A stretch of 64,000 bases of DNA from a virus (Duplodnaviria; Heunggongvirae; Uroviricota; Caudoviricetes). This document shows, piece by piece, positions 7,387-42,100 of this stretch. The notes beneath the pieces were generated by a model. That model made no database searches, was not told the DNA's origin, and saw only the letters and a program-made list of their open reading frames with translations. The first letter of the stretch is position 1. Each line of letters starts with the position of its first letter. Position numbers and translations under genes: made by a program. The stretch lies in the IMG/VR virus record IMGVR_UViG_3300035520_000451; one strand, 5' to 3'.

Positions 7387-8723
7387 AAACTCCTGTATTG
7401 GGATCAAGTAGGTTAACATAGCCTACTAAGTAAAATCTACTTAATTGCTGGGAACTCCTTAGGTATGAGGACAATCAGCAGCCAATATTACATATAAGCA
7501 GGTCTTTTAGATAGCATGTAATAAGGTTCAACGACTAGCCGCAAGGCGTACACTATTCAAAGTGGAAATGGTAGATAATTTATTTTAAAATGTTAAAATA
7601 TTTAAATATGAAATATATAGTATATTGTACTACAAATTTAGTTAATAAGAAAATTTATATTGGAGTACATTTATGTAAATCTGAAAAATTCGACGGTTAT
7701 TTAGGATGTGGAGTTTATGAATCTAGGCCCAGTACTTATAATAAACCAAAAACAGCATTTCAATATGCAGTTTAGAAATATGGGCCTTCTAATTTTAAAA
7801 GGATAACAATAAAAGAATATGATAATTCTGAAGATGCCTTTTTTTTAGAATCAGAACTAGTTAATCCTACTTTTTTAAAAAGGAAAGATGTATATAATTA
7901 GGTAATAGGAGGATTAGGTGGAGATTTAGCAAATTTATCTATTCCTTGTTATCAATATGATCTTAATGGGAATTATTTGCGAGAATTTAAATCTTAGTAG
8001 GCCGCCTCTAATTATATTAATCGAGGGTATACTACTATTAAAAGAGCAATTAAAGAAAAAATAAAATCTGCAAATAGTTATTGGTCATTAATAAAAGTAG
8101 AACATCTAGATTTATCAGAATATAAAACAACTGATAATCGAATTCCTGTTTTTCAATATTCAGAAACTGGAGAATATGACTGTTGTTATGAATCTATAAG
8201 TGATGCAGCTAGAGTAAATAATTGTTCGTCTACAAATATTTCAAGAAGTTGTAAGCTCGGCTATAAATGTAACAATAAATATTTTTCTTATGAATTTAAT
8301 TCAAATTTTTCTTATGCAAAAACGGAGTCTATTAAAAATAGAAAAGTATATTAGTATTCTCTATCTGGCGAATTTATAAAAGAATATGATTCATATTTAA
8401 TAGCTTAGAAAGAATTAAATAAACACGGTTTATCTAATGCTATTAAATTAGACAGAATATTTGCTGGATTTCAATGGAAATTAGAAAAATTTGATAAAAT
8501 AGACTCGGTTAAAATAAAAAGCGAAGCTAGAAAAGTAGGACAGTATGATTTAGAAGGTAATTTAATTAAAATATATGATACTGTAACTAAATGTAGAAAA
8601 GATTTCCCCGGATGTCGCCAAGTTCTTAGTGGCAAATATAAAACATCTGGTGGATACATATTTAAATATATAGAATAAATTAATGATATAGTCTGATCTG
8701 TATAGTAATATACAGTTAACATG
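7387..8723 (+). mobile_element. Group I intron 1 in the MCP gene (IA-like, 1337 nt)
   Basis: P1: exon GAUCCU pairs with GGGAUC (7400-7405), with U-G at the splice site. P10: CCUGUAUU (7392-7399) pairs with 3' exon GAUACAGG. P AAUUGCUGGGA at 7443, Q AAUCAGCAGC at 7473, R GUUCAACGACUA at 7526, S GAUAUAGUCU at 8685, terminal G at 8723. Confidence 0.9.
7590..8678 (+). CDS. Intron-encoded GIY-YIG homing endonuclease with NUMOD1-like repeats (TAG=Gln)
   Basis: KYIVYCTTNLVNKKIYIGVH...DGYLGCG, conserved E (FLESE) and N (VYN*VIGG), and repeated YQY.L.G....Y.S units. Six in-frame TAGs, TAA at 8676. The start could be 7608. Confidence 0.88.
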
Positions 8724-9200
8724 GATACAGGCAGACCTATTTATATAGGCGATGGATTGATTCCGTAGGTAGAGCGTTTTGCTTCTAAGTATGTTTATAA
8801 TGACAAGCCTACTGTAGAAATCTTCCATACTATTATGCAAACTATGAATGAGAAAGCTGAAAAGGCAACAGGTAATCATTATCATTTTATTGTTAATGAG
8901 AAGCTGTGGAACGACATTCAATATACCCTTGGTAAGTATCTTGCTGATTACAAAACCGATGGTTGCTATATGTATTCTAAAGCAGCTAACGATTATGTAA
9001 AGGTTGGTGCTACTTATTCTACTTATGAGTTCGCAGGTAATTCTATTTCATTCTCAGTGGATAGAACCTTTACTCGTGAGTATGGTGATAAGGGTTATGG
9101 TTTATGTTTGGATCTTTCTGCAGATCTTACAACTGGAAAACCTGCTATTGCTATGTTCTCATTGAAAGGTTGCGATGTACTTACTTCCAAATATCCAGGT
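8724..9200 (+). CDS. Major capsid protein, exon 2 (159 codons; TAG=Gln at 8766)
   Basis: Reads DTGRPIYIGDGLIP*VERFASKY...LTSKYPG and is in frame with the track ORF at 8835. Confidence 0.85.
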
Positions 9201-10539
9201 AAATTCCTTCAGTGCCTGGCTGCATAAAAATTGCAGAAAACAATTTCTCTAATTGCTGGAAACTCCTTATATAAGGACAATCAGCAGCTAATACATAGAA
9301 TATGAAAGGCTTTAAGCACTCTCTATGTAAAGTTCAACGACTAGTCCGGATGGACGTACATTATTTATTAATGGAAATGGGAAATAACTTAATATTTAAA
9401 TTATGAAATATATTGTATATTTAACAACTAACGTACTTAACAACAAAATATATGTTGGAGTACACCAAACAGAAAATCCTGAAATATTTGATGGTTACTT
9501 AGGATGTGGGGTAAATATTCATGATTCTAGCTCAATTAACCATCCAAAAACTCCGTTTCAATACGCACTTAAAAAATATGGGTTTAATGCTTTTAAAAGA
9601 AGTACTATTCAAATATTTGACGTTTTATAGGACGCTTTAGATTTAGAAGAATCTATTGTAAACGAAGATTTTATAAAAAGATCTGATGTATATAATGTTA
9701 CTGTTGGAGGAGGTTATCCACCAATATTAAATAAAATAATTTATCAATATTCGTTAGAGGGTAAATTTATTAAATAGTGGAATTCTATAACAGAAGCAGC
9801 CATAAATTTTAATATAAATTCTTCAGCTATTGGTAATGCAGTATTACATTGTCATACTAGTGCTAATTATTTATGGGCAGATTACCAAGTTGATTAGTTA
9901 AATTTAGCTAATTTTAACATATACGCACCTAAAAAACCCGTATATCAATATAATTGTTTTGGAGAATTTGAATGCTGCTATGATTCTATAAGCGCTGCTG
10001 CAAAAGCATTAAACGTACATTTATCAAATATTCAAAGATCTTTAAAAGGTGGATATAGAACTAAAGAACACTATTTTTCTTTAGAATTAAAAGCTACTTT
10101 TTCACAGGCTAAAAACACTAGATTGAGAAATGCTCCTGTACATCAGTATTCTTTAGATGGAATATTTATAAAGTCTTTTGCTAGCATTAAAGAAGTTGAA
10201 AAAGAATTTGGGTGTAGAATGGATGGAATTAATGCTGCTATTAGAATGGGTGGACAGTGTAAAGGATTTCAGTGGTCTAGAGAAAAAGTAGAGGCATTAA
10301 AACCTTTGCAAAAATTATCATCTGAGAGTAAGAAAGTAGGACAATATACTCTAGATGGAAAATTAGTTAAAATATACAATACTGTTAGAGAATGTAGAAA
10401 AGATTTTGGAAATGTTTCTAAAGTTTTAAAAGGAATTGCAAAACATTGCAAAGGATATACATTTAAATATATAAGTTAAAGATATAGTCTGATCTTATTA
10501 GTAATAATAAGAAGTATTAACAACAAATCCGCTTATTTG
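9201..10539 (+). mobile_element. Group I intron 2 in the MCP gene (IA-like, 1339 nt)
   Basis: P1: exon CCAGGU pairs with GCCUGG (9214-9219). P10: UCCUUCAGU (9205-9213) pairs with 3' exon GUUGGAGGG. P at 9251, Q at 9279, R GUUCAACGACUA at 9332, S GAUAUAGUCU at 10481, terminal G at 10539. Confidence 0.9.
9403..10479 (+). CDS. Intron-encoded GIY-YIG homing endonuclease with NUMOD1-like repeats (TAG=Gln)
   Basis: MKYIVYLTTNVLNNKIYVGVH...DGYLGCG, 358 aa, three in-frame TAGs (9628, 9775, 9895). Clearly homologous to the intron 1 ORF. Confidence 0.88.
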
Positions 10540-19100: not shown

Positions 19101-19376
19101 ATTAATTTAAAAGGAAATAAACAATCTATATACACTAAAGATGGATCTGTAGTAAAATCAATCTTTAATTCTAATGTATCTTTAAATGGAAATTATTTAC
19201 AAATTACAGAAAATACCGGATTAAAATCTATGATACTTACATGTAGATAGGAAGAGTAGGGATGCTATATTTAGGATATTAAATTAGTAAATAAAATAGA
19301 GAATAAAACATATAATAAAAATTATTATACAGATAGTTCAGAATATTTTGTAGACGATTCAGACATAAATGAGTAA
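16155..19376 (+). CDS. Large tail protein (stabilisation/muzzle-type) 1 (TAG=Gln)
   Basis: 1073 aa starting MKR*ETTNTFSDGLVMDFNPL.TPN.VLTNALNAT..T.NGNENVL*NDMGN, a conserved crAss-like tail protein start. The track ORFs at 16302, 16701, 17187 and 18966 share one frame. Confidence 0.75.
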
Positions 19377-22300
19377 TTTAAACGAAATTGATTATGAATT
19401 CTCAACTGCTCTAAAAGTATTTCCGACAAAAGGAAATCTAGTTTATGAATATAATCCTTTTAGGAATTATAGGATAGAGTAGGATATGTTATATTATAAT
19501 AACAGATTGTGGACTTATGAAGAATTTTGTATAGAATTTTATAATATTGCTAAGGGGCTGACTTTTAATGAGTATAAAGAAATAATAGCTAAAAATATAC
19601 AAGATAGTATATGGGGGAGTGAATCTCCCCCAGTAATATATTAGAAAGGGCAATTAGTTGATTTTGAAACGGATGAACTAAATTTTAATTTAAATAATCC
19701 AGTAAATATTACTCCTTAGTGGTCTTATGATAATTCTGTAAATCTTATAATAAACGATGGAAAGAATGCGCCCAGGCTTATAAATTCTAGATTTAGTCCT
19801 ACAGAAAGAAATAAATATTAGATATGTGATAGAAAAGGTAATAATGATACCAATATATATAATTAGGGAACCTAGTTTGATTTGGATACTTCTCTTTATA
19901 GAAAAACTACTACAATTCCTAGATTAAATTTCTTAGGAGTACAATATGGTGGTAGATTAGGTATTGGTAATTATCATTTCTATTTTAGATATGTAGATGA
20001 AGATGGAAATGAAACTGATTATTTTGCAGAATCTGGGCTTGTTTCTATATTTGTAGGGTACACTCCAGATTCTATATATTCAGGATTTAGAAATGAGAAT
20101 TCCCATAAATTAGTTAAATTTTATCTTACTAATACTGATCCTGGATATTATAAAGTAGTAGTATATTATACCGTAGCTACTTCTGATATAAATGAAAATT
20201 CTACAATCACTGCTAAAAGAATTAATTAGGAGTATTTAATTAATCAATCTTCTAATACTATACTTACTATTACAGGTTTTGAAAATACTACTGAAGTTCC
20301 ATTATCGGATATAAATCCTATTTATTAGATATATGGTTCTGTTGAAACTCAGGCAACTTGTTAGAATATGTTATTCTTAGCCAACGTAGATAGACCTGAA
20401 ATTCCGTATAATGATTTAGCAGATTGTGCTTTACGATTCTTGCCTCTGCTGGAAACTGAATAGTATAATAGTAATATTGATGAAGAGTATAGTGGAAGTG
20501 CTTCAAATAATTACTATGACCCAAATTATATATACAATAAAGTTGGATATTGGGATGACGAAATTTATAGATTCGGAATAGTATTTATACAGGCGGACAA
20601 TACTTTAACTCCAGTATTTAATACTCGTGGATTATAGAATTTAAGTAGTTCTACCAAAGTTGGAGATTATACTTCTATTGAATTTAAAAAGAATGATGAA
20701 CGTTTCTATATAGCCTACAATGAAGAAACTCAGATATTAGAAAAAGGTCACACTTTAGAAAATGTAAAAGGAGTAATTTCTATAGATTAGCCAGATTCTA
20801 ATTTGATTACTGGAATTAACTTTACAGCTCCTAAAGAAGTTATTGATTATTTAAAAGATACTTTACATATAAAAGGGTACTTCTTTGTAAGACAGAAAAG
20901 AATGCCCACTACATTGTGTCAAGCATATACTATTGCCACAGATATTGAAAGTCATACTCCAGTATTACCTGTTGATAATGTTGCCAGTTATGATAAAGAA
21001 GGAACGACTAGTAATTATAATTATATCGCAGAAAGCTTTCTATCTTAGAGAAACTTTACATCTTCTGACGAAGACTATTCTAAGTCTAAAAAGGGAAAGA
21101 AGATTAAAACTTTAAGTCATACTTTCTCCGAGCATTTAGTTGGTCTTACTGATTCATATGTTAAGAAACATGCGGCAATTTGCCCAGATTATGATGTAAA
21201 TTCTCCATATCTAAATTCTTTATTTACTGGAAGTGAATTTAGTATAAGACCTAGTTCACAAACTGTTAATTTAGTCCAATCTTCTGAATCCAGACACTTT
21301 TATGTTAAATCCCAACAATCTTGGAATAAATCTTCCGAATACACTAAAGTTAGAATAATCGGAGTTGAAGACAATGTAAAATTAGTTGGAATAGGTTCTG
21401 AAATGTTTTCGGCTAGAGCTGGAGAAGCAGAAGAAGCTTTTCGTTATGAATACATAGGTAGAGAGCAAAAAATTACAGAAGGTGTTAATTTACTTCGAGG
21501 ATCTTTCGGGCCGTATTTAGGAATAACAGGATATGAAGAACCTGGATCTTTAATAGATATTAAAATTCCCGGATACTCAAAGTCTAATATGGATAGTTAT
21601 TTTAAAATAAGATATGCAGATAAGTCATCTTATTATGCTATTTCTTATAGAATTGATTTAAGTAACTAGAATGATTGGATGTTTGAAGAAACTTATAATA
21701 TTAAAACAGAAGAGTCAGAAGAAGAAACTGAAACAAAATTTTATAAATTAAATTCAGCATTATATAGAGGTGATTGTTATATTTGTTAGTTCACACATAG
21801 AGTTAATAGAAATTTCTAGGATCCTTCTGCCCCTAATAATAATATTATTGCTGATCCTACTTGTTGGAGAGAAAACTTTGAAGTATCTGATGGAGTAGTT
21901 AAAAAGGAGAATTTTGATAAAATAAATTTAGGAGATGTAAATGCGGTCGGACTTGGAATGTGGGTTACTTTTACTGTTAGGTCAACTTTCAATTTAAATA
22001 TACGAGCATTAGATAGTTCAGTAGTAGATGAAATGTCTTTATTTGGACACGCTAGAGGATTTTATCCATATCATCCTATAACTACTAGTGGTGCATATAA
22101 AATTCCAGAAGCTCTTTGCTTTAATAAAGGATTTGAAACTTCTGTATCTTAGAGATGGAATTATGAAGTTCCAGACGTACCTTGGATTAAAAATGAATTT
22201 AGTAATCGTATTGCTTATTCAGATATTCAAGTTACCGATGGTTTTAGAAATGGTTTTAGAAACTTTAGAGGCTATGCTTATAGAGATTATCCAAAGACTT

Positions 22301-24231
22301 ATGGTTCTATTACTAAAATTATAGAATTAAATGGAAATTTACTTTGTGTATTTGAACATGGGGTTGGATTAATTTCTGTAAATGAACGAACTTTAGCTGG
22401 GTCTGGACAAGGCGGAAATGTTTATGTAAACACCTCTAACGTGCTTCCAGAGAATCCGAAAATACTTTCTGATACATTCGGCAGTTAGTGGAGAGAATCC
22501 GTTATAAAGACTCCCAGAGCCGTTTATGGAGTTGATACGGTAGGTAAAAAAATTTGGAAAACAGATGGAAATACTTTTGATATTATATCAGATATGTATA
22601 TATAGGAATTTTTACATGATAATATTTCTTTAACTGAAAGAGAACTAACTCCTATTATAGGAATAAGAAATGTAAAGACCCATTATAATGCTTATAAATC
22701 TGATGTAATGTTCACATTCTATGATAATTTACATGGTTTTGAAGAAAAAGTATGGAATATCTGTTTTAATGAAATTCTTAAAAAATGGATTACATTCTAT
22801 TCGTGGGTTCCATCCTATTCTGAGAATATATATAATTAGTTCTTTAGTTTTGACAGAAATACTTCTAAATGGATTGCTAAGTTAGGAATTAGTAAATCAG
22901 ATAATGCCTTTTCAGATGGTGTTACTTTAGACAATGTAATTATTGAATCTAAAGAATCTAATACTTACGAACCAATTGGAAAATTAAGCTTATCTAATAG
23001 AATTATAAATAATTTAAATTATACATTAGAATACGAACTTGTTAGAGACAATTATGGGCATTACACTAATGAGGAAGATTTTAAAATAATTGATGAAGAG
23101 TATCTTGCATTTAATTATTCTAAATATAATGAATACTTTAATAAAAATGAAGCTGTTATTCTTTTAAATATTAGATGTAATATAATTGTAGATGATACTT
23201 ATAATACAACTTTAGCATAGGCTTTTAGTAATACTGCAACTATTGATGCTGGTTATTATGAATCTACCATAGCTATATGCTTTAAAGATAAATTAGCTAA
23301 TTTAACAACTGATTTCTGGAAACATGGAAATGCTGGAATTATAGATATTAAAGATTCTCTAAAACCTACTTATTGGTATGGTAAACAACATCCGTTTGAG
23401 TTAGAATTTATAGTAGCAGAAAATCCAGCAGCTCATAAAATATTTGACAACTTAGAAATTATTAGTAATAATGCAGAACCAGAATCTTTCCATTATGAAA
23501 TAATTGGAGATTGTTTTGATTTTGCAAAAGATAAGTAGAATATGTATATTCGCTAGGAAGCTACTAAGGAATTCTTTTAGTATAATGGGCAGGATATAGT
23601 ATTTGATGATACGTATACAGATTTAACTTCTACACATCGACCTTTAAAAAGAGATGATGGAACAGAAGTTACAGGATATTATGATAAATCTACTATACTT
23701 CCTTTATATTATTTTAGATAGGATACTATTAATGAAATAGAAGATTCTTATCATTTAAGAAATGATATTAATACTAAAGATTTCTCTGCTAAAGCAGGAG
23801 CTGAAATAGTACACTATAATACTTTATAGGAGTATAGAATATGGAATCATGCTCTAGCGGTAGATCTTAGAAAAGGTGGTAGACTACGGGGTAATATGTA
23901 GTATAAGGAAGATAAATGGGATATTTAGATTAATCCTATTAATATTGCTTATAAAAATGAGGACTCTTGGGATAAAAATGATTTAGCTGGACGGAATACT
24001 TCAGCAGATAAAGTTCCTATAGAAGTAAGTCAATTTCATCTTCCAGAAACTTTAAATCAGGCACATATACCATCAACCTTTGATGATAGATCTATAGTTA
24101 GATGGGTTAATTATAAAACTGACGAAATAAAATTAAAAGATAAATGGATAAAAATACGAATTAGATATTCTGGAGAAAAGTTGGCTATAATAGCAGCTAT
24201 TAAAACTTTATATTCAATAAGTTATGGGTAA
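19369..24231 (+). CDS. Large tail protein (stabilisation/muzzle-type) 2 (TAG=Gln)
   Basis: 1620 aa with motifs GNLVYEYNPFRNYR, RDYPKTYGSITKI..LLCVFEHGVGLI.VNER, WITFYSWVP and C-terminal KDKWIKIRIRYSGEKLAII.AI.TLY. Track ORFs are in one frame. Confidence 0.75.
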
Positions 24232-25462
24232 TTTCACATTTGATAATTTAAAGTTTTCTACTCCCGATTTAGGTTAGGGAATTTATAACGGTGTAACTCC
24301 ATTATTATAGGAAGCTTAGCAAGATCCTTTGGGAGTTTTTAATACTCTTGGTAAGGTAGACGAAAAGCAACCTAAATAGAAAAAGGATATAACTAAAACT
24401 GCTAATACTTGGGGAAAGATAGGTGCAGCTGCTGATTTAGTAAGTAGTGCATTACCATAGAAGTCAGAGTTATCTGGAACATATGGTAATTATACTTAGT
24501 CTTTAGATGCTGGATATAATGCTATTGCTGACAGTGCGGCTATGTTTGGGCCCGCAGGAACAATTGTTGGCGGAGCTATGAAATTAGGTAGTGCAGCAGG
24601 TTAGCTAGCAAATAATTTAGGAGCAGGCACGGACGGCCTGACCAAGACTGACGCTATTTTAGGTAGTTCTTTTCTTAGTTTAACTCCTATAGGATTAGCA
24701 AATGGTATTTTTGGCTCTAAAACCATGTCTTTTACTAAAGATGAAGATGCTCTTGCTTAGGTTGGCGGTTCATATTTAGGAGCCGATACTATGGCTAATA
24801 AAGCTTTATCTTTATCCAATAAAAAAATTGGATGGCTTAGTTCTGGTTCTAAGAAAAAATTTAATGATTAGATATAGAAAGCATAGGATGTGCAATCTAA
24901 AGTTAATTGGATAGCAGGAAATGCTAGAGATTCTTTTGATCTTCAAAATAATATGACAGCTATTAATAGTAATAGACGAGAATATGATTTAACAGGAGGA
25001 TATGATTACGGAACTGCAGTAGGTAAACATGGTATGGCTATAAAAGATCTTTACAGAGCTAAAAGAATTATAAGTGCAGCAAAGTATTAGAAAGGAGGAA
25101 AGACTGAATTTAAAGTTATAAATCCAGATATTATAAATGAAGTTTCTGTAGAACTTCCAGAATATAGAGAAGGAGGTAAGTTTAATGTAATTCCAGAAGG
25201 TGCTCTACATGCTCGAAAGAACAATATGGAAATGGAAGGCATTACTAAGAAAGGAATTCCCGTAATTAGTGAGTCTGAAGGAGGAGAAATAGAACAACAA
25301 GCTGAGATAGAGCGCTCTGAAATAATATTTAGATTGGAAGCAACTAAAAAGTTAGAGGAATTAGCTAAGGATGGCTCTGATGAAGCAGCAATAGAAGCTG
25401 GAAAATTGCTTACACATGAGATATTACATAATACAATCGACAATACAAATAGTTTAATATAA
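24224..25462 (+). CDS. Putative cargo/ejection protein with Gly/Ala-rich membrane-like segments (TAG=Gln)
   Basis: 412 aa with the hydrophobic stretch AMFGPAGTIVGGAMKLGSAAG. The C-terminal part has KY*KGG and GGKFNVIPEGALHARKNNM..GIPVI..EIE..EIIF. Confidence 0.7.
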
Positions 25463-27201
25463 TGGCGAAACCAAGAAGTATTTTAGAATTATTAAATCTT
25501 TCTGAATTACCAGTTTATGATTATTCAACTCCAACAGATGCCACGAGAGTACACAAAGTAGTTCAACCATAGTCTGTAAGAATAGCTTAGAGTGCTGCTC
25601 CAACAACTTAGGTTACTCCTGTAAGTTATACTACTCCTGCAGATGCTGTAAATAGTACTTTAAGAGTAAGCGGAATAAATTACAATACTGGGAATGTAAG
25701 AAAACAACAACAGGCAGTAAATGATTAGCGCTAGGCTATTAGAGCCGAATATCGTAAAAGAGTTCCCAATGGTAAATATATGACAGATGCTCAAGTAGAT
25801 AGAGCTATAGCATTAGAAGCAGAATCTGCTAGAAATTAGGCTTAGGTAAGTTAGGGATATGCTTCTCCATATACTGAAGAACAAAGACAACAAGCTGCTA
25901 ATATGGCTTAGTTACATAATAACTTCATATTAGGCGGGCACTAGGTAAATCCTTAGTATGCTTATTATAATCCTGGTTATGCTTATAATTTAATAAATTA
26001 GGATGCTAATATCCTTCTAAATGCTCTTTTAGGAGCTTATAGTTTTAATGCCCCGTCACTTACTGCAACTACTCTTAATGCAGCTAGACAAGGTTTAAAT
26101 ACTGCAAGTAATGTAGCCACTAGAGTTTGGAATGCCGCTGCTGGAGCCGCCAAGAATGCTGGTACAGTTGTTACTAATCCTAGATGGGCTGCTACTACAG
26201 GAATGTTCTGGGCGCCTACAATTATGGAAGCAGCTGATGGTTCTACTTAGAATAGCGGAGGTTTTTGGAACTGGGTTGGAAATCATCCTTGGGAAACTAT
26301 GGCTTTAGCAGCTGGGGCATATAAATTAGGACGTTCTGGATTTAATTGGACAAAAGGAAAACTTAGACTGCCCGCCGAACCCGAAGGTCGACCTATTTTT
26401 AAAGAAGTGGAAATTGAAAAAGAAATTAATCCTTACCCATAGGATAGAATTCCCTGGACTCAGCCTAAGGAACCAGTAATTACTGACTTTTAGACTACAA
26501 TGACTCTTGAAAAACCTGCTGATTTTGCATTACCAGAACCTTTAAAACCTGGCCCAAAACCAACTGGAGGTAAAGGCAAAAAAGCGGAAAGAAAGTTAGC
26601 GGAATGGGAAGCTAAAAATAAAAAATATTAGGAATGGCAGCAGGCTAAAGCAGATTACGATGCCCAAATGGAGTAGTATTAGTATAGTTTGGATCATCCT
26701 GAAATTATAACAGATCAGGAAAGATTTGAGGAAGCAAAGCGAGAGTATCCTGAGGACCTTGCAAGGTGGGAGCAACGTGAGGCTGAAAGAGCTGAGGAGA
26801 ACGCAAGGTATGACTCAAAACAAGCAGAAATAGATGCTAAATACGATAAAGATGTAAAAGAACAAGCCGATAAAAAAGCTGCGTGGGAAAAGGCTAATAA
26901 AGAGTATGAAGAAAGTGAGGCTTATAAAAAGTACTTGGAGAGAATAGAATATATTAAGAAACTTAGGCATAAGGCTTGGGCATGGCCTTTGAAAAATTCG
27001 TATTGGATAGTTCCAGCAGCTGGCATAGGATATAAATGGTTTACTGGTGGGTACGGAAGTAACACTGAAAATAATACTGAAAATAATACTGATAAAAATA
27101 GTACACCGGTTGATTCTGTACAATTTGTTAAAATGCCAACTTATTAGCAGCAACAAGATAATACAGAGGATAATGATACAATAACATTCTACGGTGATTA
27201 A
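25462..27201 (+). CDS. Low-complexity/coiled-coil protein, putative cargo (TAG=Gln)
   Basis: 579 aa with an Ala-rich hydrophobic middle, a Pro-rich linker and a charged coiled coil. TAATG overlap with the upstream gene. Confidence 0.65.
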
Positions 27202-27766
27202 TATAAAAATAAATAATAAAGAATACAAAGTAAAAGAGGCTTCTACTTAGGAAGAGAAAGCTAAAGGTCTTTAGGGAATTTCTTCTTTGCCAGAAGATGA
27301 AGGTATGATCTTTTACTTTGATCCTCCCCAAAAAGTATCATTTTGGATGAAAGATACTAAAATTCCTCTTGATATTGTATTTATTAATGAAGAATACGAA
27401 GTAATTAAAGTTTAGGAAGGAAAACCAAATGACGAAACTCCTATAACTGCTGATGGTGTGTCTTATGTATTAGAAGTAAATCCTAATTCAGGTATTAAAG
27501 AAGGAGATACTTTAGATATTGAAGAAACTGAACCAGTTATGAAAGTATTATTCTAGGATGGAACTGAACAGTATCAACTTTGGGGAGGTGAGCGTATTGT
27601 TTCTAGAAGAGAAACAAAAATATTGGTAAAGAAAGCTAAGAAAGCAGAAGAATCGTAGAAGGATAAAGACTTTAAAGCTTTGGGTAAATATATGTTTAAA
27701 GTACTTAAAGGTTAGGATGAACGTCCAGCAGAGTATGTAGAATCTCCAGATAAGAAAGAATCTTAA
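27194..27766 (+). CDS. DUF192-family protein with a C-terminal extension, GTG start (TAG=Gln)
   Basis: 190 aa with the DUF192 signature KGL*G...L..DEGMIF.F......FWMKDT.IPLDIVFI...YVLEVN..GIKEGD. Confidence 0.8.
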
Positions 27767-27796
27767 TAGAATTTTTCTTAAATATTCTTAATGCCT

Positions 27797-27827
27797 TTTG
27801 AAATTAGATTTATTTTATATATATTTG
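27797..27827 (+). promoter_or_regulatory. Bacteroidota primary-sigma promoter (-33 TTTG, 19 bp spacer, -7 TATATTTG)
   Basis: TTTG at 27797-27800 and TATATTTG at 27820-27827 match the TTTG-N19-21-TAnnTTTG consensus, 60 nt before an ATG. Confidence 0.75.
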
Positions 27828-27886
27828 AATCGTTCAATTAGATTGTTTAGATAAAGAAAAAATTATAACATTAATGTTTATAAATT

Positions 27887-28213
27887 ATGAAATTTAGACC
27901 AAAGGATAGCGTTAGAAAATTTCAGATGGGTGGTGATATGGCACCCGCAGAAGAGCAAGAGCCTGTTGAAGGTCAAGCACCTGCTGAAGAAGCTCCTGCA
28001 GAACAAGGTGGTCAAGGAGATCCATTGATGCAAGTCGCTCAGTTAGCAGCTTAGGCTTTACAGAGCCAGGATTGTAATGCAGCTATGCAAGTATGTCAAA
28101 TCTTCCTTGAAATGATTCAACAAGCACAAGGACAGCAACAAGGTGGTGGAGCACCTCAAGGTGAACCAGTATTCCGTAGAGGCGGTGTTCTTGTAAAGAG
28201 AATTAAGAAATAA
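27887..28213 (+). CDS. Small Gln/Ala/Pro-rich cargo-like protein (one TAG=Gln)
   Basis: 108 aa reading MKFRPKDSVRKFQMGGDMAPAEEQ...GEPVFRRGGVLVKRIKK*. It has its own promoter and terminator. Confidence 0.75.
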
Positions 28214-28225
28214 TTTTTGTGAACA

Positions 28226-28261
28226 GATGGGAGTATGTACTAGTTATATACTCCCATTTTT
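28226..28261 (+). terminator. Rho-independent terminator
   Basis: Stem GATGGGAGTATGTA / TATATACTCCCATT followed by TTT. Confidence 0.65.
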
Positions 28262-28273
28262 ACTATATACTAT

Positions 28274-31192
28274 ATGTCATTAATGGTAGAAAAATTTTAG
28301 GGAGGAGGAACCCCTAAAGTACGAACATATAAACGATCAACTGATGAAGTTGATTTAAATGATTATATCAGATAGGCAGAAGCAGGTTTTGATAATTGGT
28401 TATCCAATGTAAGTTTAAAGGATAAAGAAAAACAAGCTGTAAGATCTGCCTATGTGGATATGCTAGGAAAGATAAATGAAGATCCACAAGGATTTGCAGC
28501 AAAAATTGGAGGGGGATTTAATAATAATTATGGTATCCATAATGCTCAAAAAGGATTTGACGCTTATGGTATAGCTGCCAATTATCTAGGTACAGTTCTT
28601 AGAAGTATGGATACTTATACAGATCCAAATAAGAAAGCTGTTTATAATAGAGATTAGGTATTATTAACTCCAGCAATGCAAAAACAAATATTTGGAAATA
28701 ATCCTGATAATTTTATAGCTCTAGATGCAGAAGATCCAGAAACAGGCACTCGTGGTACTGCTAATAGAGTAGCATAGACTATTAGAGGATTAGAAGCTTT
28801 AAAAGGAAATCTTTCAAATTATTATTCTTTTGATACCAATGAAGATAGACTTTATGCGGAATAGGCTATAGATAATACTATTGCAGCTTTAAGAGATAAC
28901 GATATTAACAACGATTACTTTAATCTAGATAAGCTTGGAGTTTCTTCTGCCAGTTCTTTATTTAATACTGAAGGAACCCCAAAAGTAGAAAATCCAAGTT
29001 AGTAGGAAGCTCCTTAGTACACTCCTGAACAACAAGCTCAAATTGAGCAGGCTGAACAAGCTAAAAATTTACAGGAAGCTTTTACTTCATTTGTTAATAC
29101 TAAGTATCCTAATTATACTGGAAATTTAGCTACAATAAATTTGGATTATTCAGGGGCTGCTCCAGTAGGATATTAGGTGGAGCAAGCTTTAATTAAAGGC
29201 TTGAATAATAAAAGTAATTAGTTTTTAAAATAGTTCTTTCAATATCTTATTACTAAAGGAACAACTGACTAGAAAGCTACTGTAAATTAGTGGATGTCTC
29301 AGATATTTCCTAAAGCACGGCTTAGTTCATATTTAACACGTGCTTATATACTTAGTAAGGTACTTAACCAAATGAATATAAACGGTCTTTGGCATGATCA
29401 GGGTGATGGAACTTACTATATAGAAGGATCTCGTAGTCAAAAAAATGGGGGATATACTGGTTGGATATTAAATACTAACAATAAAACATTACAATAGTTA
29501 AGTTTACATGATATACTTTATTGGAAAGATAAAATCATAAAAGAATTCCAATCTCAATACGACACAGATTATTGGATAAAGACTAAATATGCTCCATTAT
29601 TTGAAAAACAAGGTGGTATTTTGAAATATTATGGTGGAGGTGGAGTTGGTCGTACTAAAGATAATTATTGGTATGACGACGTATTTTCATCTTATGCAGG
29701 GGACTTATTACAGGCAGCCCAAACAGCTACTGATAAATCAGCTTTTGCAAATTCTTTAAATGCTACTCAACATGCTCATAGTCGATTGAAAGCAAAATGG
29801 ACTGGGGGAGCAGGAACGGTATATACAGAAGCAGATGTTGGAACTTACTAGAAAGGAATAAATGATAATTATTCATATGTAAATCAAAAAGGAATTGCAG
29901 GTGCTAAATAGAAAAATATTTATCAGTATGTAAATAACCCTACTTCTGGAGATAATTCCAATACACAATGGAAACCAGATAATCAATATAGCAGCCAAAC
30001 GGATGATAGACGAGTACTAGGACGTGAAGGAGATTTTACTGAGGAGTAGTTTAATTTACTCAAAACTAAATTCTCTGATGCTGGATATGAAATGTATTTA
30101 GATGATGATGATAAATATTATAAATTAAGAATTCCCACTACTAGAAGTTCTGACAATACATCAGATAATACTTCCGATATTAGTCCTACTTCTGGAGAAG
30201 ATGCTTCATCAAGTGCTACTACTAGAAGTGCTCCAGCTACAGTTAATGAAACTGGATGGAAATCTAGAATTGATGAAATTTTAAAATCAAAGCATTTCAA
30301 TCCTTATGAATATATTCCATTAGCTACCGATTTAGCTAGTTACACAAAATCTTTAGCGACTAATAAAGCTAACTATAAAGATCTTGCAGCTGCGCAAGTT
30401 CCTAAATTACATAACACATGGGGAGCATATGCTCCTGTAACCGGAGCCTTTTCTACTAAATAGCTGTATAATAGTTAGGGTGCAGATGTAATGCGCGCAA
30501 GTTATCAACCATTTACTTCAGATGCTTATTTAGCTGCTAATAGAATGCTCTAGGGACAACTTGCTAATAATCAAGCGTAGCAACAAGGCAATCAAATAGA
30601 TGATGCCGAAATTAAAAGAACTGCTTAGGTTGCACAACAATTATCTAGGGAATGGGCTCAAAGACGTTCTGATATTGCTAATTATAATACGGATGCTATT
30701 ATTTCTAATAATTAGGCTTTAGCATAGTTAAAAGCTGCTAAAAGAAATTCGGATTATAAATCATTTGATGCTTTAATGAAGGGAGTTGGTACTTGGGCAA
30801 CTAGTAAATCTCAAGATTGGGCAACTAAGAAAGCAGAAGAGGAAGCATATAAATTACAACAAGCACAAGCATTTACATAGCGTAAGTACTAGAATGAATT
30901 AGATGAAATGACTTAGATGAAAAAATCTTGGCAATTAGCTCATCCTAATGAAAGTATTTATACTACAACTTGGTATCCACAAATGCTTGCTAGAGCTAAA
31001 GAAATATCTAGTAGAATGGCTAACGATAATAATATGTTCTATGGTAAAATTAAAGGTTATCCATATTTAGATTTATATGGATCTAGTACTTATCTTCCGC
31101 AGTCTTGGTAGTATATACTTAGAGAAAAGAATGGAGGTAAATTAAATAAGTTAATTACTAAAGTAATAAGAGACAATGAAAATAATTCCTAA
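28274..31192 (+). CDS. Putative cargo/ejection protein (TAG=Gln)
   Basis: 972 aa starting MSLMVEKF*GGG. Five track ORFs lie in one frame, and the C-terminal part is Gln/Ala-rich coiled coil. Confidence 0.7.
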
Positions 31193-33125
31193 ATTTCAAG
31201 ATGGTGGATTAGCTTCTCTTTTTACTACTTTTACTAATCCTGTAATGGCCTACCAAGCATAGTAGGCTGTTGCAGGAAATAGTAGAAGAAGAGAAAGCAC
31301 CAATGAATCAACTAGTAAATCTTCTGATAAAGAATCAACTAGTAAATCTGGAATTTCAGAAGAAAAAATAAGTGAATTAGTTGCTAAAATAGATGCTCTT
31401 CCTGGAGATAGAAATAGAATTCAAGCTAAAACTGAGCAACTTCTTACTATGGCAGATGGAGACCCCGCTGAAATGGGACATATTTATAGGCAGTGTGCTT
31501 ATGATATTCAATAGAGTGCTTTTATAAAAGATCAGTATGATAAAATTTATTCTAAATTAGATAAAAATAATGCTCTAACTGAGATTGTAGTTGATGGTGG
31601 CAATGTAATTGTACAAGATAAACACAATAATATTAGACAAGTAACTGCTTCTGAATATTTAAAAAATAGAGACAAATATAATCCATTAACATATTCTAAT
31701 ATTTTATATTTAAGAGCTTGGGATCCTAAATATGCCGGAAATACAGAGATACTTAGAATTGCATCTAAAGGTATTTCAATTTAGGATGTAAACTCTTATA
31801 TAAAAGACATTATATCTTCTTTAGGAACTTCGGAATCTACACAATCGGGATACTTGGTTAAAAAGGAGAATGACTTATATCAAGGAATTCAAGCTCTTCA
31901 ATAGGAAGATGCAGCTCGTTTGATTCAAGAAAAAGGAATGTCTTTAGATGGTTTATATAGCACCAAGGTTATTACTAAAGACTAGAAAAATCAAGCACAG
32001 GCAGCTTTAGCCTACATATATACGACTCTGCCAGAAGAGGCAAAAACTCTATTAGCGGTTAAATCTGGAAATCCGAATAGAGAAAAGGGAATTCAAAGTA
32101 TGTTAACATACTTAATTTCTTCTAAACTTACTAGTATTAATGACTTCTCTGTAGATTATGAAGGAACTCTAGAAAAAGTACTTAAAAATGGTACTAAGTC
32201 TTCTTCGAATTCTTCAAGTTCTTCTAATATTAGCAATGGTGATGCTTCATTTGATGATGATATTAAAACTGGCCCATATTATAATATGTCAAGATAGATA
32301 GGAGGTACTCCTACTACTGTAACTATAAATAGAGGGTCTAAAGGACAAATGCAAGTAGATGGTGTTTCGTATTCTTCAATTCCTGATAAGAATGGAGCTC
32401 CAGTTGGTGCTACTAGCTTAAGAACTTTAATGGATTCTGGATTAGCAGGAATTACAGTTAATCAACATGCTGTTACATTTGGAGATAGAGTTCTTAGTGA
32501 AGAAGACTTTAACAATACAATGTATAATGGTATGGGAGGTGTAATGACTTACTTACCAACTACTACATCTTCAAATGGTACTAAAATAGTAGATTTAGAT
32601 GCTATTAATAGATGGGAGAATTTCTAGAAAGACTTACGAGCTAAAAATATCACTATGGGAGATCCCAATAAAGCTCAAGAAATAGCATAGTTACTACATA
32701 AGAATAATCTTGATCGTATTATAAATCGTCAAAGTGGTGGTGTAGATTGGTCTTGCTTAGGTCAATTCTTAGTTGTAGAAGGATATAGTGTAGATAAAAC
32801 TCAAAGAGATACTAAATTTGGAGACAGTAAGTTTGTAGTTAGAGTTTCAGATGATGATGCTATGGATAGAATTGAAACTACTCTTTCTACCAATGATAAG
32901 AAAGATAACTATAAAATAGATAGAAATGAACTGTATGATTTTAATGGACATGATGATGTATATAAAGGATGTATTTACATTCCTATAACAAATAATTAGG
33001 TTTAGGCTATTACTGCTGAAGGACAACATTATAAAGAACCTGCAATGCAGCAAAAAGAACTTGAATTCCAGATGTGGAATAAACAATTTAATGCTAAATC
33101 TGTAAAATCTGACGTTGTATTATGA
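31176..33125 (+). CDS. Putative cargo/ejection protein (TAG=Gln)
   Basis: 649 aa starting MKIIPKFQDGGLASLF. The track ORFs at 32100 and 32349 are in frame. ATGA overlap with the next gene. Confidence 0.7.
31305..31349 (+). repeat. 18-bp direct repeat GAATCAACTAGTAAATCT, two copies (encodes ESTSKS)
   Basis: Exact copies at 31305-31322 and 31332-31349 in a Ser-rich linker. Confidence 0.8.
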
Positions 33126-39100: not shown

Positions 39101-42100
39101 AATTAGCCTAAAGAAGAAAAGTAGGAGGGAAAACCCAATACAGAAGAAAAAACACCTAAAGAAGAAACTCCAACTACTGAAACACCCAGTTAGGAACCTT
39201 CAGAAGGATAGTCTGAATCTACAGAAGAATAGCCGGAGACTCCAATTATAGCTACTACTGAAGGAACTGCAGTATCTCCTACTTCTGCTCCAGCGTCACC
39301 TACTTCTACTTCTGAGACTTCAGTGTCTCAAGTTGAAGATGACTCAGTTAAACCTGTTACTGATACTATTATTATAGATGATGTACCTCCAGTAATAACA
39401 GATGAAGAACAATCTAAATTAAGAGAGGATATGCACGATATTCTTGAAGATAAAGATCTTGAAGAGCTTGATATAAAAGTAGATAACTTAATATCTTTGG
39501 AAAGCTCTCCTATAAGAATTTATGGATCTGCCCATCTTGCTGGTTTAAATCGTGTTGTAACTAAAGATGCCTAGGGTAAAGAAATTGTATCTTATGTAAA
39601 TCCTAGAAAAGCTATAAAATCTGACTTGTAGATATTTACAGATAAAGACACAATAACAAGCGGTGCTGAATTAAATGGGTTAGTCACTACTTTATTAGGA
39701 TTAAAATCGGTAATCCTTTATAGTAAAAGTTTAGATGACTTGCCTAGTTCTGTAGCTTCTGTAGTTAATGCTAAACATCTTGAACAAATAAAATATAAAA
39801 TAGAAATTCGTCCTAGAAAAGATTCTGATAGTTTTGTAGGTTTCACAGGATTAAAAACAGACGGGCCTGGAAACAATAAAATAGAAATAAATGGTCTAGT
39901 TTATACTTTAGTAGGAGAATTCAAAAATAATAAAGAAGAAACTTGCAAAATAACTTTAGGATTACTAGCTAATCCCGATAGTTTCTATGTTTCCGATCAA
40001 GTAAAAGAAAGCGATAAACCAGCAGTAAAAGCTAAAATTAGATAGTATAGGGCACTTTTTGATGCAATGACCTAGCAATATAAAGATAATGGGAATGTAT
40101 TTTATAAAGATGTAACTCCAATATTTTCTAGCCTTACAAGTATTAGAAAATTTACTGGAGTTGGAGAATATAAAAAACCAGTCCCAACTGTAAATCTAGA
40201 AACATTTAGAAAAACACATCCCTATACTGTTATTTCTGATCCTTACATTTATATTGGAAGTAACTTTAACGGAGTAAATAGTGATGCTATTAGAGGAAAA
40301 GCTGTGGTATTTGTATCTAATGACACTACTTTAAATCCAAATGATCTAATGCAAATTTATTTAGATCAAAAAACAGCTATTAATGCAAATAGCCCTCTTG
40401 AATCTGGAAATAGTGTTAGATTATTGCCTTTGGATAATGCTGGAATTCCATTTAGTACTCTTATACAATAGAACTATCACAGTGTTTATAATACTACTCA
40501 GAAATTACCAGACGGAACCTAGATTATTAAAATTTTTCCATTTGAGGAAGATTATATGGGAGCTAGAATGCTGGCGGCTCTTTGGAATTATCGAGCTAAT
40601 TTATATAGTTTTATAAATGCTGTAGATTCTTTCTGTAAATAGAATAATTTAGAGTATAAAGATCTAGTTAGAATTGCTAAATATGCTGATGCTAAATGGT
40701 ATAAAGAAAATAATGCAGAGGAAGTAGATGAAGAAGTAGACAAAATTTTATCAGAAACTACTGCAACTTAGGAAGAACTTAAGTTACTTTCAGATTTTAA
40801 TGATAGTTTAGCATCTAGAGTACGACAATTTCGAGTAGGTGGTAGCAGACTTGGTTCGGGAACCTATTTAAGAGAACTAACTAATATTAGTGCTGATAAT
40901 GGATTTTATAAAGGACTTAATAAAACTCCGGTAGGAATATATATAACTCCTTTTACAGCTCAAAAATAGTATAAAATGTTAGATTATCTAATATCAACTG
41001 TACTTAAAGATACTGTCAAACTTAAAACAAATGATGGAAAGGAGTGGCCTAAAGATAGACAAATTACCACTAAAGAGGGATTTAGAAATTCAATATCTGG
41101 ATTAACTTCTTCTTTAATTACTGGATCTGCATTATCTTTTACAGAAGATGGAGTTAATTATGAAATATAGTTTCCAAAGAAAGAAGCATTAAAACATATT
41201 CCTAATGTACTTTAGTATATTTATAAAAATCTTTATAGATATTAGTATAATGAGGATTATAATATTGCTCCTATTGTTTTAAAAGACGCTAATGATAAAA
41301 CTAAAGATATAAAGTTTTATTATGGAGAATTTGTAAATTCTAAAAGTGATATTTACATACCTAGAGATCTCGGGGAAGATTTTCATGATAATTCTTTTTA
41401 TGATTTAATTTCTCTAGCATTCCATGGTACAACTGCAAATCCTACTAGAACTAATTGGCACGCAACTGATGCATATTTTCCAAATGGTATTTATATTGAT
41501 CCAATGGGTGCTGAAGTTGTTGGAGAAATTAATAATTAGGCAATGTTTAGAAAATGTATTACTAACGAAAAATTATTAACGGTTAATGCTGATATTGACA
41601 TGCCTATATTTGTAGTTACTTTAAATGAATTACAGAAAGCTGTGGAATCGACTTAGGTAGAAGAAACAGAAGAACCCCCAATAGAACCCACAGAAACTCA
41701 TTCTCAAGAGACTTTAGATTTAATAGCAGAAAGTTAGCAACTAGGTATTTCAGACGATCAAATAAATAAAATTAAGAAGAAAGCTGAAAATGACGATGCT
41801 ATCTAGGAAGCTCTTATCCCACTTATAAATAAAGAATTATCTAAGAATAGCGAAAGATTATTTAGCCAATAGTTAGTTACCGGTAATGAAATATATCATA
41901 TGTCAAAAGGAGAATCGGGAATTACTAGAGTAACTATTCTTGAACAAATTTCTGAAAAGGCTAATTTAAAAGAACCTATTAAAAGTATTAATCCTGAAGA
42001 TATTTCTTGGGAAGATAGTACATTAATATTAACTTTACCAAATGGTACAATATTAAAAGTAATAAGAGGTAATAAAAATGGTTTAAAAGTCGAAAAAATT

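What the first reader, a model, noticed from the sequence alone, without database searches (positions are those of the whole stretch)
24224..31208. Recurring K-[FY]-Q-x-G-G and x-GG-[KVI]-[LF] peptide signal across the cargo genes
Four otherwise dissimilar proteins share the motif: KY*KGG (25082), KFQMGG (27917), KF*GGG (28292) and KFQDGG (31191). Two of these use TAG at the Gln. Looser forms occur as YREGGKF (25163), FRRGGVL (28172), EKQGGIL (29603) and EKNGGKL (31124). The motifs cluster near N-termini, C-termini and domain boundaries. They could be a capsid-loading or ejection-targeting signal, or a di-glycine cleavage site for a phage protease; the HExxH protein at 54971 is one candidate. 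The motif is seen in the sequence; the function is inference, and I cannot check whether it has been described.
Basis: partly seen in the sequence, partly recalled or inferred. Interest (0 to 1): 0.7.

Follow-up and report, generated by a model that had tools for sequence, protein, structure and literature searches.

The report
Shared end-tag on crass-phage cargo proteins
Several otherwise unrelated proteins that this crAss-like gut phage probably carries inside its particle share a short conserved peptide (hydrophobic, Lys/Gln/Arg, any residue, Gly-Gly) at their ends and module joints. It is most likely an undescribed handling tag for loading these proteins into the virion.

Summary
K-[FY]-Q-x-G-G occurs exactly four times in all six frames of the 124.6-kb genome. 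All four copies lie in the 9-kb gene block after the crassvirus muzzle gene, and three sit within the first 16 residues of a protein. The looser form, [KR]-x-G-G-[KVI]-[LF], occurs four times in the same proteins and nowhere else in a gene. The Gln and Gly codons differ between copies, so the constraint acts on the protein.

The tag is conserved:
- 120 of 120 relatives of the 108-aa protein keep the N-terminal tag, and 117 of 120 keep the C-terminal tag.
- 52 of 57 relatives of the 649-aa protein keep the leader.
- 130 of 150 representatives of the 412-aa protein's family have the tag directly before an invariant NVIPEGALHARKH block.
- About 20 of those 150 also carry the N-terminal leader, which this phage's copy lacks, so the tag is portable.

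The tags lie outside the confidently folded cores in the models. I found no recognisable GG-specific or prohead protease, and the HExxH protein matches no peptidase family.

My best reading is an address or docking tag for cargo handling. Cleavage at GG is not excluded, and the receptor is unknown. This scan has already noted the same tag in several other crAss-like genomes. I found no description of it in the papers I searched.

The parts
19369..24231 (+). Muzzle protein gene (1620 aa). It marks the start of the cargo block by synteny with crAss001 gp44.
   Evidence: PF25731 crAss_MUZ E = 1.1e-28 and PF25729 crAss_MUZ_C E = 2.6e-07; crAss001 gene order gp44-gp45-gp46-gp47.
24224..25462 (+). 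Cargo protein P0001 (412 aa, 12 TAG=Gln). It has a Gly-rich hydrophobic stretch, then two tags 26 residues apart, then an invariant NVIPEGALHARK block and a small hairpin-plus-two-helix domain.
   Evidence: The family has 1,319 representatives at E <= 1e-3. AF2 model.
25082..25099 (+). Tag copy KYQKGG (P0001 residues 287-292; Gln is TAG). It lies at the end of the conserved N-terminal block, where relatives carry insertions of about 100-300 residues.
25163..25183 (+). Tag copy YREGGKF (P0001 residues 314-320), directly before the invariant NVIPEGALHARK block.
   Evidence: 130 of 150 family representatives have hydrophobic-x-x-GG at exactly this place: F or Y in 125, K or Q in 115, GG in 136 (listing).
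25462..27201 (+). P0002 (579 aa), a cargo-block protein with no tag in this phage. Its counterpart in L005 ends in KRLGGILGILKK.
27194..27766 (+). P0003 (190 aa), a DUF192-domain protein present in the cargo block of all five genomes compared. Its tail carries a tag-like YQLWGGERI.
   Evidence: PF02643 E = 1.6e-24; synteny.
27887..28213 (+). P0004 (108 aa), a small protein with a tag near each end, variable Pro/Ala/Glu linkers and a two-Cys helical hairpin core.
   Evidence: 373 homologues; conservation profile; AF2 gives helices 46-59 and 63-84 at pLDDT about 80, with both tags outside the core.
27917..27934 (+). N-terminal tag KFQMGG (P0004 residues 11-16).
   Evidence: 120 of 120 homologues have [FYL]Q-x-GG here. 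Q13, G15 and G16 are invariant, and the x position varies (M, V, D, E, I, Q, A, T).
28172..28192 (+). C-terminal tag FRRGGVL (P0004 residues 96-102), followed by a basic tail.
   Evidence: 117 of 120 homologues have [FY][RK][RK]GG[VIT]L[VI].
28274..31192 (+). P0005 (972 aa from the likely start Met14 of the 985-aa ORF at 28235), a large cargo protein with an N-terminal, an internal and a C-terminal tag.
   Evidence: orthologue start MSLVIKKFAEGG in L006.
28292..28309 (+). N-terminal tag KFQGGG (Gln is TAG).
29603..29623 (+). Internal tag EKQGGIL, followed by YYGGGG.
   Evidence: Orthologues have HKEGGILKA (L006), YKEGGILKA (L008), and YKEGGILKG, MRSGGILKA and LRNGGILKA (L009).
31124..31144 (+). 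C-terminal tag EKNGGKL, 18 residues from the end of P0005.
   Evidence: L006 has RKHGGPL at the same place.
31176..33125 (+). P0006 (649 aa), the cargo-block protein just before the 3115-aa giant. It carries the leader MKIIPKFQDGG.
   Evidence: 57 homologues at 27-46% identity.
31191..31208 (+). N-terminal tag KFQDGG (P0006 residues 6-11).
   Evidence: G10 and G11 are at least 90% conserved. 52 of 57 homologues carry the leader; the other five are gene calls that begin at the Met just after GG.

Best explanation
The motif is a short linear peptide tag with the core hydrophobic/aromatic, Lys/Gln/Arg, any residue, Gly, Gly. It comes in two flavours. The first is an N-terminal leader, a basic stretch followed by K-[FYL]-Q-x-G-G, ending 10-19 residues from the start. 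The second is a joint or C-terminal form, [FY]-[KRQ]-x-G-G-[VIK]-[LF], often followed by a basic tail. It marks the ends and module joints of the small and medium cargo proteins encoded between the muzzle gene and the giant RNA-polymerase proteins of this crAss-like phage.

The most likely mechanism is inferred, not shown. A common virion component reads the tags as address or docking handles during procapsid assembly, so that unrelated cargo modules are recruited and held until ejection. Candidate components are the portal region, a scaffold or the inner capsid surface. Several tags per protein would give multivalent attachment, and new modules could be inserted between two tags without losing loading.

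Shown here: the tag's specificity to the cargo block, its conservation, its portability between protein families, its position at insertion hot-spots, and its position outside the confidently folded cores. Inferred: that it is bound rather than cut, and by what.
For: 1. Specificity. There are 4 strict and 4 loose copies in 2,923 cargo-block residues and none in 35,579 other residues of the genome. Codons differ between copies.
2. Conservation far above the surroundings. The P0004 family keeps the N tag in 120/120 and the C tag in 117/120, while the linkers between vary. The P0006 family keeps the leader in 52/57 down to 27% identity. Five syntenic genomes, using both genetic codes, keep the tags at the same places.
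3. Portability. About 20 of 150 P0001-family representatives begin M..K[KR][YF]QxGG, but this phage's P0001 does not. L008 and L009 have the leader on that protein, and L005 and L009 lack it on the P0005-like protein.
4. Joints. 130/150 family members have the tag directly before the invariant block. Insertions of 100-300 residues and extra tag copies lie between the two tags of P0001. Spacing between copies is bimodal, at 20-39 and 110-200 residues.
5. Linear-motif character. The tags lie in low-confidence, linker-flanked segments outside the confident cores of both AF2 models.
6. crAss001 C1 (gp45) also has a basic leader ending IFDTGG (residues 16-21) and EYTGG plus a basic tail at its C-terminus. 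Its cryo-EM model runs unbroken from residue 425 through AFGG and TQGG (PMC10172136; positions), so those GG copies are uncut and ordered next to the portal.
7. No C39, C48, S78 or S77 peptidase was found in the record.
Against: No receptor is identified. In both AF2 models the tags are simply low-confidence, which fits a cleavage site as well as a docking site.

The same short consensus at leader ends and at internal joints is what phage T4 shows for its prohead-protease sites (established knowledge), so cleavage would explain the distribution just as well.

The crAss001 GG copies that are seen uncut have a different spacing (aromatic directly before GG), so they may not be equivalent.

The genome record is only about 72% complete by CheckV's estimate, and a host protease or a novel protease fold cannot be excluded.
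Confidence: 0.45

Rival explanations
1. Targeting plus trimming, as in phage T4. The N-terminal leaders bring proteins into the procapsid. A maturation protease then cuts after Gly-Gly, removing leaders and basic C-terminal tails and splitting multi-module cargo proteins at their joints, so the cargo genes are in effect small polyproteins.
For: The same consensus ends short N-terminal leaders (GG ends at residue 10-19) and marks internal joints and near-C-terminal sites. T4 CTS and gp21 sites, and adenovirus (M/I/L)XGG sites, are distributed the same way (established knowledge). Residues after GG vary widely in the leaders, as expected for a tolerant P1' site. Tags are exposed in flexible linkers. 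Some close relatives carry an HELWH module between tags (P0066, P0084).
Against: No C39, C48, S78 or S77 peptidase is present in the record. The HExxH stretch of the 788-aa protein has no peptidase match. The HELWH module is in only 2 of 150 family members. The crAss001 structure paper reports no processing: zero uses of 'cleav' or 'proteol'. It models gp45 continuously through two GG copies and proposes one chain spanning tail and capsid. In the P0006 family the residues after GG (F-M-S-L-F..Y.P) are conserved too.
Confidence: 0.3
2. Structural joint or link. The Gly-Gly makes a tight beta-turn flanked by short strands. These act as flexible hinges between modules that must unfold and thread through the narrow portal and tail channel. 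Alternatively, they act as strand-pairing ends that couple one cargo protein to the next, fixing an order of ejection.
For: AF2 draws a tiny hairpin around RRGGVL in P0004. In P0001-family members, short tandem units of tag, strand-like SIIELI or SINVIP, then tag recur every 20-39 residues. The crAss001 authors propose partial unfolding during ejection (PMC10172136).
Against: A mere hinge would not need the conserved Lys, aromatic residue and Gln, nor a position at the extreme N-terminus. Counts of N-type and C-type tags do not match one to one. The hairpin has only pLDDT 52-62.
Confidence: 0.15
3. Chance or compositional by-product of Gly- and Lys-rich low-complexity proteins, or a nucleotide-level signal such as a ribosome-binding-like GGAGGA.
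For: Two copies are encoded GGA GGA. The patterns were chosen after looking.
Against: Shuffles of the same proteins give a mean of 0.007 against 4 observed. The other copies use GGT and GGC, and the Gln codons differ. The tag is near-invariant in hundreds of relatives while the neighbouring linkers vary.
Confidence: 0.02

Closest known systems
Capsid-targeting sequence (CTS) of phage T4 internal proteins (IPI-III, Alt), removed by the gp21 prohead protease
   Same: A short N-terminal leader of about 10 residues shared by otherwise unrelated proteins that are packed in the head and injected. The leader ends in a short consensus that also occurs at internal sites.
   Different: The sequence differs: basic-[FYL]-Q-x-G-G here, against a leader ending L/I-x-E in T4. 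Copies also occur at C-termini and module joints. No gp21-like (S77) or S78 protease was detected. Neither removal nor targeting is shown here.
crAss001 cargo protein 1 (C1, gp45; Pfam PF25725; Bayfield et al. 2023, PMC10172136)
   Same: Same genomic place, directly after the muzzle gene. It has a Gly-rich hydrophobic stretch, a basic leader ending in hydrophobic-x-x-GG (IFDTGG) and a C-terminal EYTGG with a basic tail. Aromatic-GG copies lie at the borders of both cryo-EM-resolved segments: 209-210 before segment 214-245, 425-428 at the start of segment 425-552 and 561-563 after it.
   Different: PF25725 is not detectable anywhere in this genome. Profile and fold comparisons of the P0001 C-terminal domain with gp45 gave nothing. 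The crAss001 copies mostly have the aromatic residue directly before GG. Here the cargo is split over six genes.
Gly-Gly maturation sites of adenovirus ((M/I/L)XGG-X, adenain) and ASFV or poxvirus core proteins
   Same: A hydrophobic residue a few positions before Gly-Gly, found on several internal virion proteins near both termini.
   Different: The register differs by one residue (hydrophobic-x-x-GG). No clan CE peptidase was found with PF02902. The adenain family itself was not searched. The host range and virus lineage are unrelated.
Double-glycine leader peptides of bacteriocins, cut by C39 peptidase domains
   Same: An N-terminal leader that ends in Gly-Gly.
   Different: The leaders here are shorter (GG ends at residue 10-19), basic, and lack the LSxxELxxIxGG pattern. 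No C39 domain is present in the phage record. The proteins are virion-block proteins, not exported peptides.

Membership tests
T4-type capsid-targeting sequence system | Short N-terminal leader shared by unrelated head-internal, injected proteins | tested here: met
   P0004, P0005 and P0006 begin with basic-K-F-Q-x-G-G. The leader is found on different protein families in relatives. Virion-internal location is inferred from synteny with crAss001 only.
T4-type capsid-targeting sequence system | Phage-encoded prohead protease (S77 gp21-like or S78) that removes the leader | tested here: not met
   PF03420 and PF04586 have no match at E <= 1 in the 124.6-kb record. The record is about 72% complete, so absence is not proven.
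T4-type capsid-targeting sequence system | Leader absent from the mature virion protein and sufficient to target a foreign protein | not testable with these tools
   Needs virion N-terminomics and reporter fusions.
Double-glycine leader with C39 peptidase | Leader of 15-30 residues with the conserved hydrophobic pattern LSxxELxxIxGG | tested here: not met
   GG ends at residue 10-19, and the consensus is basic-K-[FYL]-Q-x-GG.
Double-glycine leader with C39 peptidase | C39 peptidase domain encoded with the substrates | tested here: not met
   PF03412 has no match in the genome. The control genomes, including Bacteroides thetaiotaomicron, do match.
Adenovirus or ASFV type GG-X maturation (clan CE protease) | Clan CE cysteine protease gene in the virus | tested here: inconclusive
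   PF02902 (C48) has no match. Adenain (C5) and other CE families were not searched. The record is incomplete.
Crassvirus cargo protein 1 (crAss_CARG1, PF25725) | Match to the PF25725 domain | tested here: not met
   No match among the six proteins at E <= 0.1 nor in six frames of the genome at E <= 10.
Crassvirus cargo protein 1 (crAss_CARG1, PF25725) | Gene directly downstream of the muzzle gene, with a Gly-rich hydrophobic segment | tested here: met
   P0001 overlaps the end of the PF25731 gene. There is a local match of the Gly-rich segment to gp45 residues 139-155, pairwise E = 0.013.
Crassvirus cargo protein 1 (crAss_CARG1, PF25725) | Domain that binds the portal wing, as in the solved crAss001 virion | tested here: inconclusive
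   Profile against PDB sequences gave none. hhalign against gp45 400-580 gave probability 0.35%. Foldseek and VIA-align gave only generic helical matches.

The most novel reading that the evidence does not exclude
Crassvirus cargo genes are small polyproteins. The hydrophobic-x-x-Gly-Gly tag would be both the address that brings them into the procapsid and the cutting site of a maturation protease with a fold not yet recognised, or a host protease. [quoted passage not shown] Either way, the tag would be a portable label for loading foreign proteins into the most abundant phages of the human gut.
Probability: 0.3. Interest if true: 0.8.

Novelty: new variant of a known kind. Interest (0 to 1): 0.62.

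Why it matters
How crassviruses load several megadaltons of protein into the capsid and tail, including a giant RNA polymerase, and eject it in order is an open question that the crAss001 structure paper itself raises. This tag is short, portable and present on hundreds to thousands of cargo proteins, which gives a concrete handle on that question. It can be mutated, fused to reporters, looked for in existing virion proteomes and searched for in cryo-EM density. It also explains how new modules can be added to cargo proteins without losing packaging: they are inserted between two tags. In practice, the tag is a good marker for annotating cargo genes in uncultured crAss-like genomes. It also gives an internal check of the TAG=Gln reading, because the invariant Gln of the tag is TAG in two of the four copies.

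Tried and rejected
1. I tested whether the P0001 C-terminal domain is the portal-bound domain of crAss001 gp45. A profile of 91 sequences against PDB sequences found nothing. hhalign against gp45 400-580 gave probability 0.35%. Foldseek against PDB had no hit at E <= 0.001. VIA-align wide gave a best Z of 4.8, with generic helical hairpins only. PF25725 is absent. The homology is not shown.

2. I ran one complex prediction of a portal relative (P0216, alignment A4) with the tag-bearing C-terminal part of a P0001 relative (P0094, alignment A5). The result was no verdict, with scores of 0.00 and 0.00. This is not evidence either way. I did not pursue either.

3. Pairwise BLAST of P0001 and P0005 against gp45, and of P0006 against gp46, gave only the Gly-rich segment match.

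4. Pfam and PHROGs scans of the six proteins found only DUF192. Pfam scans of ten long P0001-family members found only inteins.

5. A related-locus scan of viral contigs with P0005 found nothing.

6. I looked for proteolysis data on crAss001. The structure paper has none. Its only held supplement is a reporting summary. The 2018 isolation paper lists gel bands, but the band-to-protein table is not held.

7. A literature search on DUF192 was uninformative.

8. I tested a zincin module as a general tag protease. HExxH occurs in the inserts of only 2 of 150 family members.
Full report
**What the window is.** Under the standard code the + strand of 4-62 kb is broken into small ORFs. With TAG read as Gln it gives one long operon of large genes. 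The 1620-aa product of 19369-24231 matches the Pfam crassvirus muzzle families (PF25731 E = 1.1e-28; PF25729). It is followed by six genes:
- P0001, 412 aa
- P0002, 579 aa
- P0003, 190 aa, DUF192
- P0004, 108 aa
- P0005, 985-aa ORF
- P0006, 649 aa

Proteins of 3115, 2724, 1069, 788 and 1541 aa come next. In crAss001 the muzzle gene gp44 is followed by cargo proteins C1 (gp45) and C2 (gp46) and then by the RNA-polymerase-associated giants (PMC10172136). So 'cargo genes' is a fair label by synteny, but no proteome exists for this phage. The whole record is 124.6 kb and about 72% complete. Relatives lie on contigs of 145-178 kb.

- K[FY]Q.GG has exactly four hits in six frames of the whole genome, all in this block.
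- Against a non-overlapping ORF set this is 4 in 2,923 residues versus 0 in 35,579 (Fisher p = 3e-5). Shuffles of the block proteins give 0.007 on average.
- [KR].GG[KVIL][LFIV] is also 4 versus 0.
- The copies use different Gln codons (TAG, CAG, TAG, CAA) and different Gly codons, so the constraint is on the peptide, not the DNA.
- The 985-aa ORF probably starts at Met14 (window 28274), because its L006 orthologue begins MSLVIKKFAEGG. Three of the four strict copies therefore end 11-16 residues from an N-terminus.

**Conservation is the independent test.** Two distant GenBank phages, MT835470 (standard code) and MT835492 (TAG=Gln), match P0006 at 24-26% identity. Both have tag copies at N-termini of genes just upstream of that match. 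Four metagenomic relatives have the same gene order: muzzle, P0001-like, an optional P0002-like gene, DUF192, a small protein, a large protein, P0006-like, then a giant. They keep the tags at the same places. These are L005 (standard code) and L006, L008 and L009 (TAG=Gln).

| Family | Result |
|---|---|
| P0004 (373 homologues) | 120 of the best 120 have [FYL]Q-x-GG near the N-terminus, with Q13, G15 and G16 invariant and x free. 117 of 120 have [FY][RK][RK]GG[VIT]L[VI] near the C-terminus. The Pro/Ala/Glu linkers in between are poorly conserved. |
| P0006 | 52 of 57 homologues (27-46% identity) start M-K-[IV]-I-P-K-[LFM]-Q-x-G-G. The other five are gene calls starting at the Met just after GG. 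|
| P0001 (1,319 representatives at E <= 1e-3 in a 50%-identity library) | 130 of the best 150 have hydrophobic-x-x-GG directly before the invariant block NVIPEGALHARKH. F or Y in 125, K or Q in 115, GG in 136. |

**The tag is portable and sits at joints.**
- About 20 of the 150 P0001-family representatives begin with M..K[KR][YF]QxGG, although this phage's P0001 does not.
- In L008 and L009 the P0001-like protein has the leader. In L005 and L009 the P0005-like protein lacks it.
- Many family members match P0001 in two pieces, query 57-295 and query 310-412, with 100-300 extra residues between them. That gap is exactly between the two tags of P0001, and it holds further tag copies.
- Spacing between successive copies is bimodal, at 20-39 residues and 110-200 residues.
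- The inserts have no Pfam match apart from inteins in two proteins.

crAss001 gp45 shows the same layout in a slightly different register. It has a basic leader ending IFDTGG (16-21) and EYTGG plus a basic tail at the C-terminus. Aromatic-GG copies lie at 209-210, 331-333, 426-428 and 561-563. The two segments resolved by cryo-EM, 214-245 in the tail barrel and 425-552 on the portal wing (PMC10172136), are each bordered by such copies.

**Structure.** AlphaFold2 was run on P0001 274-412 with 91 sequences. It gives a confident hairpin plus two helices for the last 70 residues. It leaves both tags, and even the invariant NVIPEGALHARK stretch, below pLDDT 50. For P0004, with 110 sequences, it gives a helical hairpin at 46-84 (pLDDT about 80). 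The tags lie outside it at pLDDT 52-62, with a minimal hairpin drawn around RRGGVL. The tags therefore behave as conserved linear motifs in flexible regions. They are either bound in trans or cut.

**Docking or cutting?** I could not decide this.

Against cutting:
- No C39, C48, S78 or S77 peptidase is detectable in the record.
- An HELWH module occurs between tags in only 2 of 150 family members.
- The crAss001 paper never mentions processing. It models gp45 without a break through AFGG and TQGG (425-435) and interprets the protein as one chain spanning tail and capsid.

For cutting:
- T4 and adenovirus show the same distribution: a consensus at the end of short leaders, near C-termini and at internal joints (established knowledge).
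- The residues after GG are very variable in most leaders.
- The record is incomplete, and a host or novel protease cannot be ruled out.

I put the uncut address or docking tag at 0.45, targeting plus trimming at 0.30, a structural hinge or chain-link role at 0.15 and an artefact at 0.02. Any residual is unassigned.

**Relation to what is known.** The nearest functional analogue is the T4 capsid-targeting sequence. The nearest relative in kind is crAss001 C1. Membership in either family fails on at least one defining feature: no prohead protease for the first and no PF25725 domain for the second.

In the literature I could search, none of these describes such a tag or any cargo processing:
- the crAss001 structure paper
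- a 2023 Crassvirales review (PMC10136315)
- a 2025 paper on zeta crAss-like phages (PMC12386605)

Broader text searches also found nothing.

**Earlier notes in this scan.** Within this scan the same tag has already been noted and followed up on other crAss-like genomes: e1-1940115, e1-5372829, e1-1857056, e1-5372762, e1-3408790 and e1-1881482. My results agree with them. They add family-wide counts for three protein families of this clade, the link to the borders of the resolved gp45 segments and the negative protease searches.

Noticed in passing
window 24224-24250 and L003:24509-24535: P0001 begins M-G-N-F-T-F and crAss001 gp46 (C2) begins M-A-N-F-S-F. The L005 counterpart has NTFSIF near its start. 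This may be a second, different N-terminal signature on cargo proteins.
   Followed up: no
window 27194-27766: A DUF192 (PF02643) protein sits in the cargo block of all five genomes compared, always just before the small two-tag protein. Its tail carries a conserved tag-like [YF]..[LW]GGERI. Its function is unknown, and it is a candidate partner of the tags.
   Followed up: partly
window 33122-61949: The giant proteins have cysteines at or next to their ends: residue 3115 of 3115, residue 4 of the 2724-aa protein, residue 1069 of 1069, residues 3 and 788 of 788, and residue 8 of the 1541-aa protein.
   Followed up: partly
window 40829-40850 (residue 2573 of the 3115-aa protein): A tag-like RQFRVGGSR is conserved in the L006 orthologue (RQFRIGGSR at residue 2529). 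Each of the five largest virion or cargo proteins has one loose hydrophobic-[KQREN]-x-GG copy.
   Followed up: no
window 6574-10479: A capsid-protein fragment (phrog_11589) is followed by two homing-endonuclease genes (phrog_314), so the capsid gene is interrupted.
   Followed up: no
L007:15834-17333 (minus strand; genome outside the window): A 499-aa ORF with Hint and LAGLIDADG homing-endonuclease domains lies upstream of the portal gene (L007:11852-14038). It is probably an intein in a packaging or structural gene.
   Followed up: no
P0074 and P0155 (relatives of P0001): Two members of the P0001 cargo family carry inteins (Intein_splicing; one also has LAGLIDADG_3).
   Followed up: no
P0066 residue 529, P0084 residue 479 (closest relatives of P0001): An inserted module with an HELWHY[IL]SQNKP zincin-like motif lies between two tags. 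It has no Pfam match.
   Followed up: partly
window 28235-28273: The first 13 codons of the 985-aa ORF (MYQLYTPIFTIYY) are probably not translated. The orthologue starts at the equivalent of Met14.
   Followed up: partly
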